A stretch of 58,790 bases of DNA from Escherichia phage FS2B, in the sequence record MW929182; one strand, written 5' to 3'. This document shows positions 30,155 to 36,189 of this stretch, piece after piece. Made by a program: the position numbers and the translations under genes. A model generated the notes under the pieces. It was given only the letters and a program-made list of their open reading frames with translations. It made no database searches and was not told the DNA's origin. How positions within the stretch are numbered: position 1 is the stretch's first letter; every line of letters starts with the position of its first letter.

Positions 30155-30439
30155 TCAACCTCTTGGGAATGGCATCAAAAATTCCATAGCAGATTTAATC
30201 TCATTATTGATTCGTGAATCACGATAAGAGATAAACTTACCTTTGCTATCACGTAACATCACATGGGTTCTGGCTGTTTTGTGAGGGAGCAATGTGATAC
30301 TAGTTGGAATAGCATCAATCCCTACAGCGTATTTGTCAATAGTCTTACTTTCAGCCAACAGATAAGACCAAGTACGCGGTTTCTGCTCCGGGCGGTTAGG
30401 GTATGTGTCCCGAATTTGAACCATAGCTAACTTATTCAT
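30155..30439 (-). CDS. small hypothetical protein, paralog pair member
   Basis: Shares TART.V.LR...GKFISY..FP.G with 30441..30695. Confidence 0.4.
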   Translation of the reverse strand: MNKLAMVQIRDTYPNRPEQKPRTWSYLLAESKTIDKYAVGIDAIPTSITLLPHKTARTHVMLRDSKGKFISYRDSRINNEIKSAMEFLMPFPRG

Positions 30440-30440
30440 A

Positions 30441-30695
30441 TTAAACTCCTTTAGGGAATGGGATGAGATTTTCTACTGCAACACGGAAAGATTTTTCTAC
30501 GTTCTTATTCTTATAAGAGATAAATTTTCCATCAGCTCCTCGAAGGAGTACGTTAGTGCGAGCTGTATTTGGGTTTTGTTGAATCATAGAACGAATGATG
30601 TTCTCTGAACCTCTATGCTTATTGGTGAATTTCCAACTGATAGTTTTACCGGTACGAGTTACATCAATGATATTTACGATTTTTACAATAGACAT
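30441..30695 (-). CDS. small hypothetical protein, paralog pair member
   Basis: Shares TART.V.LR...GKFISY..FP.G with 30155..30439; 2-nt gap between the two genes. Confidence 0.4.
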   Translation of the reverse strand: MSIVKIVNIIDVTRTGKTISWKFTNKHRGSENIIRSMIQQNPNTARTNVLLRGADGKFISYKNKNVEKSFRVAVENLIPFPKGV

Positions 30696-30764
30696 ATTTA
30701 TTACCTAAGAAGTTTAATTTGGTTTATATAAAAGAAAAGGCCACCTGATTAGGCAGCCTTTGTT

Positions 30765-31058
30765 CTAGAGACGAAGCCAAGTTTGATAGTCAGCTTCAGT
30801 GTAATGGTTGTTTCGAGAGTTATTTTTCATTTCCTTGAGAGTAGCTCTCAGGTCAATGTTATGCTCTCTCCTTGTTCTATTCGGGTCTGTATCTTCTAAT
30901 AGATGGGAGTGATCACTACAAGAGTAGTGCTTATAGTGGTCCCTGTATCCTCTACTTGGAGAATACTTGGTCATTAAAGTTGCAACTCTTTTTACACCCT
31001 CTGCTTTACAGAATTTACAATAAGTGTGAATTGTACATCTTTTTGTTTCTGCTGACAC
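30765..31058 (-). CDS. Cys/His-rich hypothetical protein
   Basis: Track ORF; several CxxC-like and His pairs suggest metal binding. Confidence 0.35.
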   Translation of the reverse strand: MSAETKRCTIHTYCKFCKAEGVKRVATLMTKYSPSRGYRDHYKHYSCSDHSHLLEDTDPNRTRREHNIDLRATLKEMKNNSRNNHYTEADYQTWLRL

Positions 31059-31068
31059 TATAACCTCT

Positions 31069-31383
31069 TTATGAGCTTAAAGCTCCTTTGCGTGCTCCAG
31101 CTGCTTTTCCAGCTCGATCACCACTTTTGCCGCCGTTTGAACGGTTTGAGCTGACTGATTCAACACGTAAGTTGCTTGACGCATTAGAGCCTCCAGACTT
31201 GACAGCTCGTTTGTGTCCAACGTCTTTACCTCTGACAGCAGCTTTTCCATCGCGCTTTTCAACGATGCGACGTGCACGGTGGCGCTGAGCATCTCCGCTC
31301 TTGCTCCCAACGCCTGTTTCACCACGGGCAATTGCGGTACGTCTTTCTTGTGCATAATCTCTCTTTCCTACATGATCTGCCAT
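31069..31383 (-). CDS. basic Gly-rich hypothetical protein
   Basis: Strong AAGGAG RBS 8 nt upstream of ATG 31383; an alternative-frame ORF 31077..31355 overlaps and cannot be excluded. Confidence 0.35.
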   Translation of the reverse strand: MADHVGKRDYAQERRTAIARGETGVGSKSGDAQRHRARRIVEKRDGKAAVRGKDVGHKRAVKSGGSNASSNLRVESVSSNRSNGGKSGDRAGKAAGARKGALSS

Positions 31384-31439
31384 TTAGAACTCCTTAATAT
31401 ATCAGTGTACACTAAGGAGTATACATTATAAGTTACTGT

Positions 31440-32177
31440 TTAAGCTTTCTTTTCCATTGCTTTAACAATCGCCTTACAGAAACCAGAACGAACAATATCA
31501 TCTGATTCACCATCTACAATCTCAGCAAACTCATACAGATCGTGTTCATCAATAAAGTTAGTAGCCCAAGTTAGACCACTCTCGCGACCACGCATATCAT
31601 GCTGGTTTGTATCACCCATACAGAACAATTGAGAGGTTTCTCCCAATCGAGTCATGATGGAGAAGGCTTCATCCTTAGTTGTGTTCTGGAACTCATCAAC
31701 AATAACAATAGCATCATTGAAAGAACGACCACGGAGATATTCCAGAGGTACAAACTCAATGTTACCATTTCCGATTTGGCATTCATAGAATCCCTTACCA
31801 TATCGCTGAGTAATAACATCAATGATAGGCATCAGGTATGGTTCAAACTTCTCACGCATTCCTCCCGGAAGTAACCCAAGAGAGTTGCCCATGCCAACCG
31901 AAGGGCGACTCAGAATGATCTTCTGAATCTTACCGCTCTTCAGTGCATCAATAACTGTGGAAGTGATTACAAAGGTCTTACCACAGCCCGCAGGAGCGTC
32001 TGTGAACACAACTTGTTTAGTCTTAATAGCATTGAGTAGCTCAGACTGAAACTGGTTCTGAGGGACTACAGGCTTTGCTAAAACCACCTCTTCATACTCT
32101 CGCTTACCCTTACGAGTAACAAGTGCTTCTCGACGAAGGTCTTTCCGTGATTCTTTCCGTGATTGACGACGACTCAT
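31440..32177 (-). CDS. phoH: PhoH-like ATPase
   Basis: Walker A VFTDAPAGCGKTFV and overall PhoH-like layout. Confidence 0.8.
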   Translation of the reverse strand: MSRRQSRKESRKDLRREALVTRKGKREYEEVVLAKPVVPQNQFQSELLNAIKTKQVVFTDAPAGCGKTFVITSTVIDALKSGKIQKIILSRPSVGMGNSLGLLPGGMREKFEPYLMPIIDVITQRYGKGFYECQIGNGNIEFVPLEYLRGRSFNDAIVIVDEFQNTTKDEAFSIMTRLGETSQLFCMGDTNQHDMRGRESGLTWATNFIDEHDLYEFAEIVDGESDDIVRSGFCKAIVKAMEKKA

Positions 32178-34366: not shown

Positions 34367-34374
34367 GTAAATCC

Positions 34375-34554
34375 TTATGCAGTCAGGAGGTGAAGCAGGA
34401 ATGGGATAACAACAGCTACGATAACCATGATAGTTGATGCTGTTTGAATCTCACCTTTCTTATCAGGAGTTTCTTCAATAAGCTTACCAGAAGCCCAATA
34501 AATACCACCACCAATAAAGATAGCCCAAATACCCCATACGATTGCTGATAACAT
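34375..34554 (-). CDS. small membrane protein (59 aa), not in ORF track
   Basis: Hand-translated ORF MLSAIVWGIWAIFIGGGIYWASGK...IMVIVAVVIPFLLHLL with two hydrophobic segments; length consistent with coordinates. Confidence 0.3.
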   Translation of the reverse strand: MLSAIVWGIWAIFIGGGIYWASGKLIEETPDKKGEIQTASTIMVIVAVVIPFLLHLLTA

Positions 34555-34615
34555 ATATCTATATCCTTATAAATAAGTTCGCCCCACCTCGGGTTAGGAG
34601 ACAGGGCGGAGGTTT

Positions 34616-35179
34616 TTAGTAAGACACGTCACCACTTGAATGGGACATGTTGCTCTTGACGAAGTAGCAATACTTGCCAAGACCTTCATTAATTTCTTGA
34701 AGCATACTCTGATCGACAGGGTAGGTGGCTAAATCACCATCAAACTCATCCATCTTCTCAATAATACACATCAAGGTCATGCACATATCAGAGAGCATAC
34801 CGTCCATGTCTAGATCAGCGTTACCCTCTGAGAACCAAGCATGAGAGAGGTAGTTAGCTGCTGTAGCGTCCACTTTAACACAGTGGTAACGCATACGTTC
34901 AGCAATACGATCTCCTACCTGTCGTGCGTAATCTTCCAGCTCGTCAAACATACCATGAACACCCTGAAATCCTGAACCAGAGACGTTCCAGTGGTAGTTT
35001 TTAGCTTTGATATGCAAGAGTTCCATGTTAGCTTGCAAGCAGCTCAGAATGTGTTCTAGGCTGTTTCCACTAATCATACCCTGCATTGTTTCAAGGCGAG
35101 AGATTGATAGGTCGGACCGGTCTAACATACTATAGCTGTCACGACCAATCTCAGGTAAATCAAAGACATTCTTATGCAT
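34616..35179 (-). CDS. Dps/ferritin-like protein
   Basis: NYHWNVSGSGFQGVHGMFDELEDYARQVGDRIAERM resembles the Dps ferroxidase-site region; start set at the internal ATG with a GGAG RBS. Confidence 0.5.
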   Translation of the reverse strand: MHKNVFDLPEIGRDSYSMLDRSDLSISRLETMQGMISGNSLEHILSCLQANMELLHIKAKNYHWNVSGSGFQGVHGMFDELEDYARQVGDRIAERMRYHCVKVDATAANYLSHAWFSEGNADLDMDGMLSDMCMTLMCIIEKMDEFDGDLATYPVDQSMLQEINEGLGKYCYFVKSNMSHSSGDVSY

Positions 35180-35501
35180 TTGGGTTTTCTCCATCAAGTT
35201 CAACCGAGTTAGCAACATTACGTGCAATATTATCCATTACCTGCTGGGTAATTACGATGCAGTTCTGTGGGTCTACTGACTTAGAACGCCCCATTTCAGG
35301 GTCATACACCTTAACCCGCTTAGCAGTTGAACCTGTAACCTGAAGAACCTTCAACAGATATCCCTGATTACCAATAGACCAAGCAACAACATCACGATTC
35401 TTGATAAAGCGACCAAGCATATCACGATGATAAAACTGTTGCATCACCTTGGATTTTGTAATCTCTTCAGTGGGCGGGGCCACTTTACTCAAATCTAACA
35501 T
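35172..35501 (-). CDS. hypothetical protein
   Basis: Track ORF on the coding strand. Confidence 0.4.
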   Translation of the reverse strand: MLDLSKVAPPTEEITKSKVMQQFYHRDMLGRFIKNRDVVAWSIGNQGYLLKVLQVTGSTAKRVKVYDPEMGRSKSVDPQNCIVITQQVMDNIARNVANSVELDGENPNA

Positions 35502-35573
35502 AACTCTCTCCTGTAAAATACAAATTCTTATTGTACTCTATATACATTTGAGAGTTACCATATCTACTACCAA

Positions 35574-35783
35574 TCAGTAGTAAATTACTTTAGACATAAA
35601 AGAACCAGTGTTAGGGTCTTCATACCAGCGATGTATGTCAGCGCTTTTTACTATTGTGCCCAGAGTCTTCAACTGTTTCTTAGCAATACGAGCCTCTTTG
35701 CGAGTATCAAACAATTTGATGTTATCTTTTCTCATGTGTTGCTCAAGATCCCAAACAACATGAATAGCCCACATCTTTTTCAT
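35574..35783 (-). CDS. small hypothetical protein, paralog triplet member
   Basis: Shares length (65-69 aa), a conserved Trp and the C-terminal SKV.YY with the next two genes. Confidence 0.4.
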   Translation of the reverse strand: MKKMWAIHVVWDLEQHMRKDNIKLFDTRKEARIAKKQLKTLGTIVKSADIHRWYEDPNTGSFMSKVIYY

Positions 35784-35992
35784 TAGTAATGTACCTTTCC
35801 GCTGATATAAACACGACCAGAAGAATACTCCTTGGCCTTATGGATACTGATACTATTAACCACGTCACCAGTAAGCATAGTCTTTTTAAAATCTCGAGCT
35901 TGTTGGCGAGTGGGTAGTGCAGTCATAGTCATGCCACCTGATGCCCACTTAATCTTTGCTAACCAAAATTGTCTCATGGTGATTGGTCTCAT
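35783..35992 (-). CDS. small hypothetical protein, paralog triplet member
   Basis: Same pattern as 35574..35783; 1-nt stop/start overlaps. Confidence 0.4.
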   Translation of the reverse strand: MRPITMRQFWLAKIKWASGGMTMTALPTRQQARDFKKTMLTGDVVNSISIHKAKEYSSGRVYISGKVHY

Positions 35993-36189
35993 TAATAATA
36001 AACCTTACTGTTAACACAAAAAGCACCTTCACTATTCACGATAGCTTTTCCTAGTGTAACCCTATTAAGTCTAAAAGTAGATTTGTATTGATTTTTGACC
36101 CTACGTGCGTGCTCTCGAGTCTTAACAAAATCTACAGCTACTAACTCTCCAGTCGTGTTATCATGTACACGAACAATCCACTTTTTCAT
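35992..36189 (-). CDS. small hypothetical protein, paralog triplet member
   Basis: Same pattern (ends NSKVYY); translationally coupled. Confidence 0.4.
   Translation of the reverse strand: MKKWIVRVHDNTTGELVAVDFVKTREHARRVKNQYKSTFRLNRVTLGKAIVNSEGAFCVNSKVYY

What the first reader, a model, noticed from the sequence alone, without database searches (positions are those of the whole stretch)
30155..36189. Additional small-protein paralog sets (pair at 30155..30695, triplet at 35574..36189, pair at 54804..55296)
Besides family A, three further sets of tandem small paralogs are present: the pair with TART..LR..GKFISY..FP.G, the triplet ending in SKV.YY, and the pair with RY.A.D..G.V...KP. Repeated local gene duplication with divergence is a recurring feature of this genome's early and middle regions and suggests selection for diversification, as seen for anti-defence or host-interaction factors.
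Basis: seen in the sequence. Interest (0 to 1): 0.4.

Follow-up and report, generated by a model that had tools for sequence, protein, structure and literature searches.

The report
Small paralogous orphan genes in Kuravirus
The window is a phiEco32-like (Kuravirus) coliphage, and the three sets of neighbouring small genes are real but already catalogued families of unknown function: two are ancient duplications kept throughout the phage subfamily, and the third pairs a conserved gene with a distant relative probably acquired from another phage.

Summary
All seven ORFs sit at the stated coordinates on the minus strand, and each set maps to one PHROG: pair 1 to phrog_6814, the triplet to phrog_4939, pair 3 to phrog_1972. 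The window is 98% identical to Escherichia phage SkaterBoy_Bas90 (Kuravirus). In phiEco32 the genes are gp57/gp56, gp71-gp69 and gp108.

Pair 1 and the triplet are ancient duplications: 22-50% amino-acid identity and no DNA-level repeat. They keep the same slots across Gordonclarkvirinae, at 1-2 and 2-4 copies. They are tightly packed (0-1 nt gap or a 1-nt overlap) and very basic (pI 9.8-10.8). The models are small alpha+beta folds with no significant structural or Pfam match. The triplet family has only 23 clusters among 1.84 billion proteins.

Pair 3 is probably not a local duplication. The 77-aa gene occurs in about 10 genomes and is closer to a Phapecoctavirus protein (47%) than to its neighbour (31% over 35 aa).

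dN/dS is below 1 for every whole gene (0.05-0.5). Only the N-terminal half of the gp57-type protein approaches 1. Alleles are mosaic.

An anti-defence role is untested and has no homology support. Function remains unknown. My best guess is non-enzymatic binding proteins. This is an ordinary phage feature.

The parts
30441..30695 (-). Pair 1, upstream copy (84 aa, pI 10.8), the phiEco32 gp57 type. Its N-terminal half is hypervariable and its C-terminal module is nearly invariant: TARTNVxLRGxDGKFISYKNK...PFPKG.
   Evidence: ORF. phrog_6814 at E 7e-39. AlphaFold model pLDDT 86, pTM 0.76, topology beta-beta-alpha-beta-(beta)-alpha. N half against C half identity 0.48 against 0.90 among 37 orthologs. 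phiEco32 naming.
30155..30439 (-). Pair 1, downstream copy (94 aa, pI 10.0), the phiEco32 gp56 type. It starts 1 nt after the end of the upstream copy.
   Evidence: ORF. BLASTP to the other copy E 2e-14. phrog_6814 at E 1e-36. Missing in Bas89. dN/dS 0.08-0.33.
35992..36189 (-). Triplet copy 1 (65 aa, pI 10.2), the phiEco32 gp71 type. It starts immediately after the dCTP deaminase stop codon.
   Evidence: ORF. phrog_4939 at E 5e-27. Model pLDDT 79, pTM 0.63, topology beta-beta-alpha-beta-beta. dN/dS 0.24-0.52.
35783..35992 (-). Triplet copy 2 (69 aa, pI 10.6), the phiEco32 gp70 type. Its ATG overlaps the copy-1 stop codon (TAATG). The true start may be the internal ATG at 35977, which would give 64 aa as in some orthologs.
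   Evidence: 64-aa orthologs such as P0043 appear.
35574..35783 (-). Triplet copy 3 (69 aa, pI 9.8), the phiEco32 gp69 type. Its ATG overlaps the copy-2 stop codon. It is the last gene before the middle promoter.
   Evidence: It is 98% identical to KBNP1711 with dS 0.05, while the flanking genes have dS 0.6-0.85, which indicates recent recombination.
55045..55296 (-). Pair 3, resident copy (83 aa), the phiEco32 gp108 type. It is a near-core early gene of Gordonclarkvirinae.
   Evidence: tblastn finds it in 98 records at 62-100% identity. dN/dS 0.05-0.20.
54804..55037 (-). Pair 3, sporadic copy (77 aa, using the ATG at 55037). It is a stand-alone version of a roughly 70-aa module that forms the C-terminal part of larger proteins in other phages.
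   Evidence: Found in only about 10 Kuravirus records. 47% identity, E 1e-18, to residues 79-151 of phAPEC8 gp227. Also matches Carvaje gp016.
35541..35549 (-). Match to the phage sigma (gp36) promoter element (AAATGTATA), in the 72-nt gap right after the triplet. It corresponds to the phiEco32 promoter upstream of gene 68.
   Evidence: Motif search and sequence. Consensus tAATGTAtA and the promoter positions upstream of genes 40, 58 and 68 come from PMC8948821 and PMC4331800.
31420..31428 (-). Exact gp36-type promoter element (TAATGTATA), equivalent to phiEco32 P58. It heads the middle-gene unit that runs through pair 1 to the DNA polymerase gene.
30736..30761 (-). Terminator-like hairpin followed by a T-run, between the gp58-like gene and the first copy of pair 1.
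   Evidence: This is a pattern match only. The number of such sites found does not exceed the number expected from shuffled sequence.

Best explanation
These are three unrelated families of small, non-enzymatic orphan proteins of phiEco32-like phages (Gordonclarkvirinae).

Shown:
- Pair 1 (gp57/gp56 type) and the triplet (gp71-gp69 type) are ancient tandem duplications. They were fixed before the genera diverged and keep the same slots. The triplet lies between the dCTP deaminase gene and the gp68-like/Dps genes. Pair 1 lies in the operon that leads to the DNA polymerase gene.
- The copies are packed head to tail, with a 0-1 nt gap or a 1-nt stop/start overlap. The Shine-Dalgarno sequence of the next gene is encoded by the conserved C-terminal codons of the previous one. 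Translational coupling is inferred from this layout.
- Each copy is under purifying but relaxed selection, and alleles are reshuffled by recombination.
- Pair 3 is a conserved resident gene (gp108 type) next to a sporadic distant homolog that was most likely acquired horizontally.

Inferred: the pair 1 and triplet proteins are single-domain, highly basic alpha+beta proteins. I expect them to act by stoichiometric binding, not catalysis. They would be made before or at the onset of phage DNA replication. Their most likely targets are host macromolecules: an acidic host protein or a nucleic acid involved in takeover or counter-defence. The paralogs would have partitioned targets or target variants. 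In the gp57 type, the invariant C-terminal module would carry the common function and the variable N-terminal half the specificity.

I put the evolutionary description at about 0.9 and the mechanistic part at about 0.4.
For: Identity of the phage and gene names.

Family membership and paralogy.

Age and fixation:
- The same ordered arrays occur in phiEco32, SU10, KBNP1711, Bas89, EK010, Bas86 and the metagenomic locus L012.
- A single pair 1 copy sits at the same slot in a more distant 82-kb contig.
- There are no DNA-level repeats between copies.

Packing: gene ends and starts lie 0-1 nt apart or overlap by 1 nt, and the Shine-Dalgarno sequences fall inside the C-terminal motif codons. The 1-nt overlaps are conserved in all loci examined.

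Selection and mosaicism.

Non-enzymatic, basic, small alpha+beta proteins:
- pI 9.8-10.8.
- Structure models.
- No Pfam or NCBIfam family at threshold.
- BFVD returns only the protein's own family.

Timing: gp36-type promoter elements lie at 35541-35549 and 31420-31428. SU10 proteomics classes genes 74 and above as early and 68 and below as middle.

Narrow distribution: 23 real clusters among 1.84 billion representatives, all 65-75 aa and stand-alone.

Pair 3 origin.

Prior for host-directed binders, from my own knowledge: the small proteins with known functions in the T7 DNA-metabolism region (gp1.2, gp2, gp5.5, gp5.7, gp5.9) are mostly inhibitors of host factors. The BASEL study reports that Gordonclarkvirinae are remarkably resistant to restriction-modification systems with no known mechanism (PMC11990801).
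Against: - No experiment or homology links any of the seven proteins to a target.
- They are basic, unlike the acidic DNA-mimic inhibitors Ocr, ArdA, Ugi and p56.
- Pair 1 and pair 3a are present in about 98 of about 99 related genomes, and the triplet slot is filled in every locus I examined. That fits a housekeeping role in the phage's own programme as well as a host-specific accessory role.
- Whole-gene dN/dS never exceeds 1.
- Fixed synteny with replication and nucleotide-metabolism genes fits a phage-internal role equally well.
- None of these proteins was detected in the SU10 lysate proteome, although neighbouring small proteins were. This is weak evidence.
Confidence: 0.4

Rival explanations
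1. Phage-internal accessory factors of DNA metabolism. The basic pair 1 proteins would bind DNA or RNA, or dock onto the replisome encoded just downstream. The triplet proteins would bind or regulate the nucleotide-metabolism enzymes they are co-expressed with, possibly as a hetero-oligomer of the three paralogs.
For: - pI 9.8-10.8, with 12-16 Lys+Arg in 65-94 residues.
- The invariant T-R-x-x-A-R-x-x-K lies at the start of the single helix of the triplet model.
- Synteny is invariant. The triplet directly follows the dCTP deaminase gene, and extra dispersed copies in EK010, KBNP1711, WFI101126 and Paul lie beside the thioredoxin and ThyX genes.
- Pair 1 always lies between the gp59-like gene and the DNA polymerase gene, even in the distant contig L021.
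- Presence is near-universal.
- The tight packing of the copies suggests co-expression.
Against: - These genes evolve much faster than the enzymes around them: dN/dS 0.2-0.5 against 0-0.1.
- Between the window and L012, triplet alleles are at most 39% identical while the flanking genes are 87-94% identical.
- Copy number varies: 1-2 for pair 1 and 2-4 for the triplet family.
- The N-terminal half of gp57 is hypervariable.
- No similarity to any known nucleic-acid-binding fold.
Confidence: 0.3
2. One reading: these are counter-defence proteins in an arms race. Tandem duplication and divergence would have been driven by selection to diversify, as with amplified anti-defence loci.
For: - Alleles are fast-evolving and mosaic, and copy number varies.
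- dN/dS in the N-terminal half of gp57 reaches about 1.
- HNH homing endonuclease genes sit next to these arrays in Bas89, EK010 and Bas86.
- A homing endonuclease has been shown to drive amplification of anti-defence loci in phage T6 (PMC13096335).
- Gordonclarkvirinae resist restriction-modification systems by an unknown mechanism.
Against: - The duplications are ancient and fixed, not recent amplifications.
- Each paralog forms its own conserved ortholog group, with 77-85% mean identity within a group.
- Whole-gene dN/dS is below 1.
- There is no PADLOC-type or other match of note.
- The proteins are basic, not acidic.
Confidence: 0.2
3. Some or all of the ORFs are annotation artefacts, or decaying remnants with no function.
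For: They are short and have no known domains. None was detected in the SU10 proteome. The 77-aa pair 3 gene is absent from most relatives.
Against: - The reading frames are conserved in about 100 genomes.
- dN/dS is below 1.
- All have Shine-Dalgarno sequences.
- AlphaFold predicts confident compact folds.
- The same signature residues persist in homologs as low as 25-30% identical.
Confidence: 0.03

Closest known systems
PHROG families phrog_6814, phrog_4939 and phrog_1972 (unknown function), which correspond to phiEco32 gp56/57, gp69-71 and gp108
   Same: Full-length HMM matches at E 1e-14 to 1e-39. Gene order is the same as in phiEco32, SU10 and Bas90, where these ORFs are annotated as hypothetical proteins.
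   Different: Nothing differs. The window's genes are members of these families. None of the families has a characterised member.
Small host-takeover or inhibitor proteins in the early and DNA-metabolism regions of T7 and T4 (for example T7 Gp2, gp5.5, gp5.7 and gp5.9, and T4 Dmd), and phi29 p56
Homing-endonuclease-driven segmental amplification of anti-defence loci in phage T6 (SegB; PMC13096335)
   Same: Both involve tandem multiplication of small accessory genes in a lytic phage. Homing endonuclease genes lie beside the arrays in some relatives.
   Different: The T6 amplifications are recent, near-identical repeats selected in the laboratory. The copies here share 22-50% amino-acid identity, have no DNA-level repeat, and are fixed across a subfamily.
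The C-terminal module of Phapecoctavirus phAPEC8 gp227 and Klebsiella phage Carvaje gp016 (uncharacterised)
   Same: The 77-aa pair 3 gene aligns over its whole length with gp227 residues 79-151 (47% identity, E 1e-18). The 83-aa gene aligns with the same segment (E 6e-5).
   Different: In those phages the module is fused to unrelated N-terminal extensions. In Carvaje the extension gives a sub-threshold zinc-ribbon match. Here the module stands alone, twice.

Membership tests
phrog_4939 (triplet; phiEco32 gp69-71 family) | Full-length match to the family profile (67 positions) | tested here: met
   E 1.7e-28, 6.8e-28 and 5.1e-27, covering positions 1-67.
phrog_4939 (triplet; phiEco32 gp69-71 family) | Signature residues W5, T-R-x-x-A-R-x-x-K and a C-terminal Tyr, plus the position after the dCTP deaminase gene | tested here: met
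   Alignments A4 and A7. Synteny in seven loci.
phrog_6814 (pair 1; phiEco32 gp56/57 family) | Full-length profile match, and the C-terminal module T-A-R-T-x-V-x-L-R-x-x-x-G-K-F-I-S-Y ... P-F-P | tested here: met
   E 1.2e-36 and 7.3e-39. Invariant columns listed.
phrog_1972 (pair 3 module) | Match to profile positions of about 21-104 | tested here: met
   E 8.5e-20 for the 83-aa gene and 3.5e-14 for the 77-aa gene. The direct similarity between the two is marginal.
DNA-mimic anti-restriction or inhibitor proteins (Ocr, ArdA, Ugi, p56) | Strongly acidic surface that mimics DNA | tested here: not met
   pI 9.8-10.8 for pair 1 and the triplet, and 5.7 and 7.8 for pair 3.
DNA-mimic anti-restriction or inhibitor proteins (Ocr, ArdA, Ugi, p56) | Significant fold or sequence similarity to a known member | tested here: not met
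Known defence-system or defence-associated proteins (PADLOC-DB) | Profile match | tested here: not met
   Best E-values are 0.014 and 0.035, at 12-13 bits.
SUKH / SMI1-KNR4 immunity domains (considered for the pair 3 module) | Pfam match above the gathering threshold | tested here: not met
   SUKH_6 matched one homolog only (Carvaje gp016), at E 0.11-0.12 and 13.4 bits against a cut-off of 27.
Beta-trefoil (FGF-like) fold (considered for the pair 3 module) | Significant profile match, or a predicted beta-trefoil structure | tested here: inconclusive
   The A6 profile against the PDB gives a best E of 0.0086, to an engineered FGF1, over 63 positions. No structure prediction was available for this family.
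Recent segmental amplification (SegB-type or accordion-like) | Near-identical tandem DNA repeats | tested here: not met
   The only repeat is 18 nt, encoding GKFISY. Paralogs share 22-50% amino-acid identity.

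The most novel reading that the evidence does not exclude
The gp57/gp56 family, and perhaps the gp69-71 family, is a new class of basic, modular counter-defence or host-takeover proteins. An invariant C-terminal module would carry the effector function, and a hypervariable N-terminal half, exchanged among phages by recombination, would set target specificity. Such a family would contribute to the unexplained resistance of Gordonclarkvirinae to restriction-modification systems.
Probability: 0.1. Interest if true: 0.6.

Novelty: already known. Interest (0 to 1): 0.22.

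Why it matters
As it stands, it matters little. Arrays of small paralogous orphan genes are common in the early and middle regions of lytic phages. These particular genes are already annotated as hypothetical proteins in about 100 public Kuravirus-group genomes and are grouped in PHROGs.

The useful outputs are practical ones:
- A clean list of which copies are core (gp56/57, gp69-71, gp108) and which are sporadic (the 77-aa gene).
- The finding that the gp57 type joins an invariant C-terminal module to a hypervariable N-terminal half.
- The finding that the triplet slot is a divergence hot spot between highly conserved flanking genes.

These features make the genes sensible first candidates for deletion and defence-panel tests in the BASEL Kuravirus isolates. 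The basis of the restriction resistance of those isolates is unknown.

Tried and rejected
- Pfam, NCBIfam and PADLOC scans of all seven proteins gave nothing at threshold.
- Profile searches of the PDB with the triplet, pair 1, pair 1 C-terminal module and pair 3 module alignments gave only sub-threshold motif-level matches: SpoIID, a GH18 accessory domain and FGF1.
- Foldseek against BFVD returned only the pair 1 family itself.
- The afdb50 library was not available.
- A profile-profile comparison of the triplet and pair 1 families, tried because their models have similar beta-beta-alpha-beta-beta topology, showed no relationship (probability 0.2%).
- IMG/VR scans with distant triplet homologs found nothing.
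- I considered a dU-DNA plus uracil-DNA-glycosylase-inhibitor scenario, prompted by the adjacent dCTP deaminase gene and the weak p56 hit. I rejected it as unsupported: the phage encodes ThyX, and the proteins are basic.
- No third structure prediction was available for the pair 3 module.

Full report
**What the window is.** The 7.5 kb around the finding is 98% identical to Escherichia phage SkaterBoy_Bas90. It matches 99 phage records, nearly all Escherichia or Shigella phages of the phiEco32/Kuravirus group, subfamily Gordonclarkvirinae. Structural genes lie on the plus strand up to about 19 kb. The replication, nucleotide-metabolism and early genes lie on the minus strand. Public annotations call all seven ORFs of the finding hypothetical proteins. 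In phiEco32 numbering, pair 1 is gp57 and gp56, the triplet is gp71, gp70 and gp69, and the 83-aa member of pair 3 is gp108. The 77-aa member has no phiEco32 counterpart.

**Check of the observation.**
- Pair 1 is clearly paralogous: 50% identity over 40 aa, E 2e-14. HMMs built from the orthologs of one copy detect the other at about 1e-15 and detect nothing else in the window.
- The triplet is weakly similar by BLASTP: E 2e-5, 3e-5 and 0.085. That would not survive an all-against-all search of the window. All three nevertheless match phrog_4939 end to end at about 1e-27. Leave-one-subfamily-out HMMs connect them. A wider family alignment keeps W5, T-R-x-x-A-R-x-x-K, an I-H-K strand and a C-terminal Tyr.
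- Pair 3 is the weakest set: 31% over 35 aa, E 4e-4, with no cross-detection by ortholog HMMs. Both genes do match phrog_1972 and the same segment of a Phapecoctavirus protein.
- The 77-aa gene most likely starts at the ATG at 55037, not the TTG at 55097.
- Every gene has a Shine-Dalgarno-like sequence. Six of the seven could be compared with orthologs, and all six have dN/dS below 1. The 77-aa gene had no ortholog in the six loci.

**Anatomy and expression context.** The dCTP deaminase gene and the three triplet genes are packed without spacers, with stop/start overlaps of the form TAATG. The two pair 1 genes are 1 nt apart, and the next gene follows directly.
K-V in SKVYY and GKVHY gives AAGGT. 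K-G and R-G in PFPKG and PFPRG give AAAGGAG and AGAGGT. Part of their conservation may therefore be a constraint at the nucleotide level.
- The last triplet gene keeps SKVIYY without this role, and distant homologs keep the terminal Tyr.
- phiEco32 middle and late promoters have the single element tAATGTAtA and lie upstream of genes 6, 13, 26, 40, 58 and 68 (PMC8948821; PMC4331800).
- On the minus strand of the window, this element occurs exactly at 31420-31428, before the gp59-like gene. It occurs with one mismatch at 35541-35549, in the gap just after the triplet.
- The triplet is therefore the tail of the long upstream unit, which the SU10 authors class as early (genes 74 and above early, 68 and below middle).
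- Pair 1 lies in the middle unit that continues into the DNA polymerase gene. A terminator-like hairpin sits just upstream of it.
- Pair 3 lies in the early region, next to tRNA-Arg.

**Evolution of pair 1 and the triplet.** An HMM scan of six annotated relatives gives these copy numbers:

| Phage | Triplet family | Pair 1 family |
|---|---|---|
| phiEco32, SU10, the window | 3 | 2 |
| Bas89 | 3 | 1 |
| KBNP1711 | 3, plus 1 dispersed copy beside thyX | 2 |
| EK010 | 2, plus 2 dispersed copies | 2 |
| Bas86 | 2 | 2 |

- A distant 82-kb IMG/VR contig has one pair 1 copy at the same slot, with an unrelated N-terminal half.
- tblastn finds pair 1 in 98 records, mostly as two copies.
- The paralogs share no nucleotide repeat beyond the 18 nt that encode GKFISY. 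Each forms its own ortholog group, with 77-85% mean identity within a group and 26-29% between groups. The duplications are therefore old and fixed.
- Pairwise dN/dS is 0.05-0.5 for these genes and 0-0.1 for the neighbouring enzymes.
First, the N-terminal half of the gp57 type averages 48% identity (minimum 17%) against 90% for the C-terminal half. Its dN/dS is 0.2-1.06, against at most 0.46 (below 0.25 in all but three comparisons) for the C half.
- Second, the triplet slot is a divergence hot spot. In the metagenomic relative L012 the flanking dCTP deaminase, gp68-like and DnaB proteins are 87-94% identical to the window. The three small genes are only 28-39% identical, yet remain recognisable family members with the same overlaps.
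- Recombination is evident. Triplet copy 3 is 98% identical to KBNP1711 with dS 0.05, while its flanks have dS 0.6-0.85.
- HNH homing endonuclease genes sit beside these arrays in Bas89, EK010 and Bas86. This offers a plausible route for such exchange.

**Pair 3.** The 83-aa gene is present in 98 related records at 62-100% identity. The 77-aa gene is present at 90% identity or more in only 10 records. Its next relatives are Phapecoctavirus and other unrelated phages.
- It aligns over its whole length with the C-terminal half of phAPEC8 gp227 (47% identity, E 1e-18). That is much better than its match to its neighbour.
- In Klebsiella phage Carvaje the same module follows a Cys-rich N-terminal extension that gives a sub-threshold zinc-ribbon match.
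- The simplest reading is that a mobile small-protein module was inserted next to a distant resident homolog, and that this is not an in-place duplication.

**What the proteins are.** There are no Pfam, NCBIfam or PADLOC matches at threshold.
- The AlphaFold models are confident. The triplet member has pLDDT 79, pTM 0.63 and topology beta-beta-alpha-beta-beta. The pair 1 member has pLDDT 86, pTM 0.76 and topology beta-beta-alpha-beta-(beta)-alpha.
- The two families are unrelated by profile comparison.
- Pair 1 and the triplet are very basic, with pI 9.8-10.8. Pair 3 is not, at 5.7 and 7.8.
- An exhaustive profile search with the triplet family found 24 hits among 1.84 billion representative proteins. 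One of these is a low-complexity false positive. The other 23 are all stand-alone proteins of 65-75 aa.
- None of the seven proteins was detected in the SU10 lysate proteome, although neighbouring small proteins were.

**Mechanism.** No function can be demonstrated with these tools. I commit to the view that these are non-enzymatic binding proteins.
- For pair 1 and the triplet, my leading reading (about 0.4) is host-directed takeover or counter-defence binders made before or during replication, with the paralogs having partitioned targets.
- The close rival (about 0.3) is a phage-internal role in DNA metabolism. It is favoured by the basic charge, the invariant synteny, the near-universal presence and the tight, apparently coupled gene layout. 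It is disfavoured by fast evolution and by copy-number and allele variability.
- The BASEL study notes that Gordonclarkvirinae resist restriction-modification systems by an unknown mechanism (PMC11990801). A homing endonuclease can drive amplification of anti-defence loci in T6 (PMC13096335). These are context, not evidence for these particular genes.

**Verdict.** The feature is ordinary for a lytic phage, and it is already catalogued as hypothetical proteins and as PHROGs of unknown function.

Noticed in passing
window 29497-29525 (minus strand): A perfect sigma-70 consensus promoter (TTGACA, 17 nt, TG-extended TATAAT; 12 of 12 matches) lies inside the first 60 nt of the DNA polymerase gene (27708-29552), pointing the same way as the gene.
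   Followed up: no
window 30736-30761 and 55522-55545 (minus strand): Two terminator-like hairpins have very similar stems (A[A/G]AGGCTGCC ... GGCCTTT). One lies upstream of pair 1. The other lies in the early region upstream of the gene at 55293-55469. They may belong to a conserved family of terminators or RNA elements.
   Followed up: no
window 24557-24656: There is a cluster of phage-sigma promoter elements on both strands within 100 nt: exact TAATGTATA at 24567-24575 (minus) and 24639-24647 (plus), and one-mismatch copies at 24557 and 24648 (plus). The minus-strand site fits the phiEco32 P40 position. The plus-strand copies are unexplained.
   Followed up: no
window 35783-35800, 35992-36010, 30439-30460 and 30152-30175 (minus strand): The conserved C-terminal motifs of the paralogs (SKVYY, GKVHY, PFPKGV, PFPRG) are encoded by the same nucleotides that form the Shine-Dalgarno sequence of the next gene. 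In the triplet they also form its overlapping start (TAATG). The signature motifs are therefore under dual constraint.
   Followed up: partly
L007 19491-20000 and 24654-25148; L008 25585-26079; L009 25032-25412: In relatives (Bas89, EK010, Bas86), HNH homing endonuclease genes are inserted directly beside the triplet and pair 1 arrays. EK010 ORF66, annotated 'baseplate subunit', is an HNH_3 protein.
   Followed up: partly
window 10663-12696; 51931-52430; 53804-54025, 56054-56272 and 56739-56972; 56498-57394: An all-against-all BLASTP finds further paralog sets: two adjacent 322-350-aa ejection-type proteins, an adjacent 82/84-aa pair, a dispersed trio of 72-77-aa early proteins, and an 83/139-aa pair.
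   Followed up: no
window 35574-35783 compared with L006 (KBNP1711): Triplet copy 3 is 98% identical (dS 0.05) to a phage of another genus. The adjacent genes have dS 0.6-1.5, which indicates a recent inter-genus recombination patch of roughly one gene.
   Followed up: partly
window 31069-31383 (minus strand): A 104-aa, extremely basic protein (pI 11.5, rich in Arg, Lys, Gly and Ser) is the first gene after the P58-type promoter. It is 89-100% conserved across genera and was detected in the SU10 proteome as gp56. It has no Pfam match.
   Followed up: no
window 36733-38103 (minus strand): The nucleotidyltransferase next to the dCTP deaminase gene gives a sub-threshold PolyA_pol head-domain match (18.8 bits against a cut-off of 23). 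It diverges far more than its neighbours, at 33-41% identity between genera against 92-96% for the deaminase, except in Bas89. The BASEL authors speculate that it is linked to a DNA modification.
   Followed up: no
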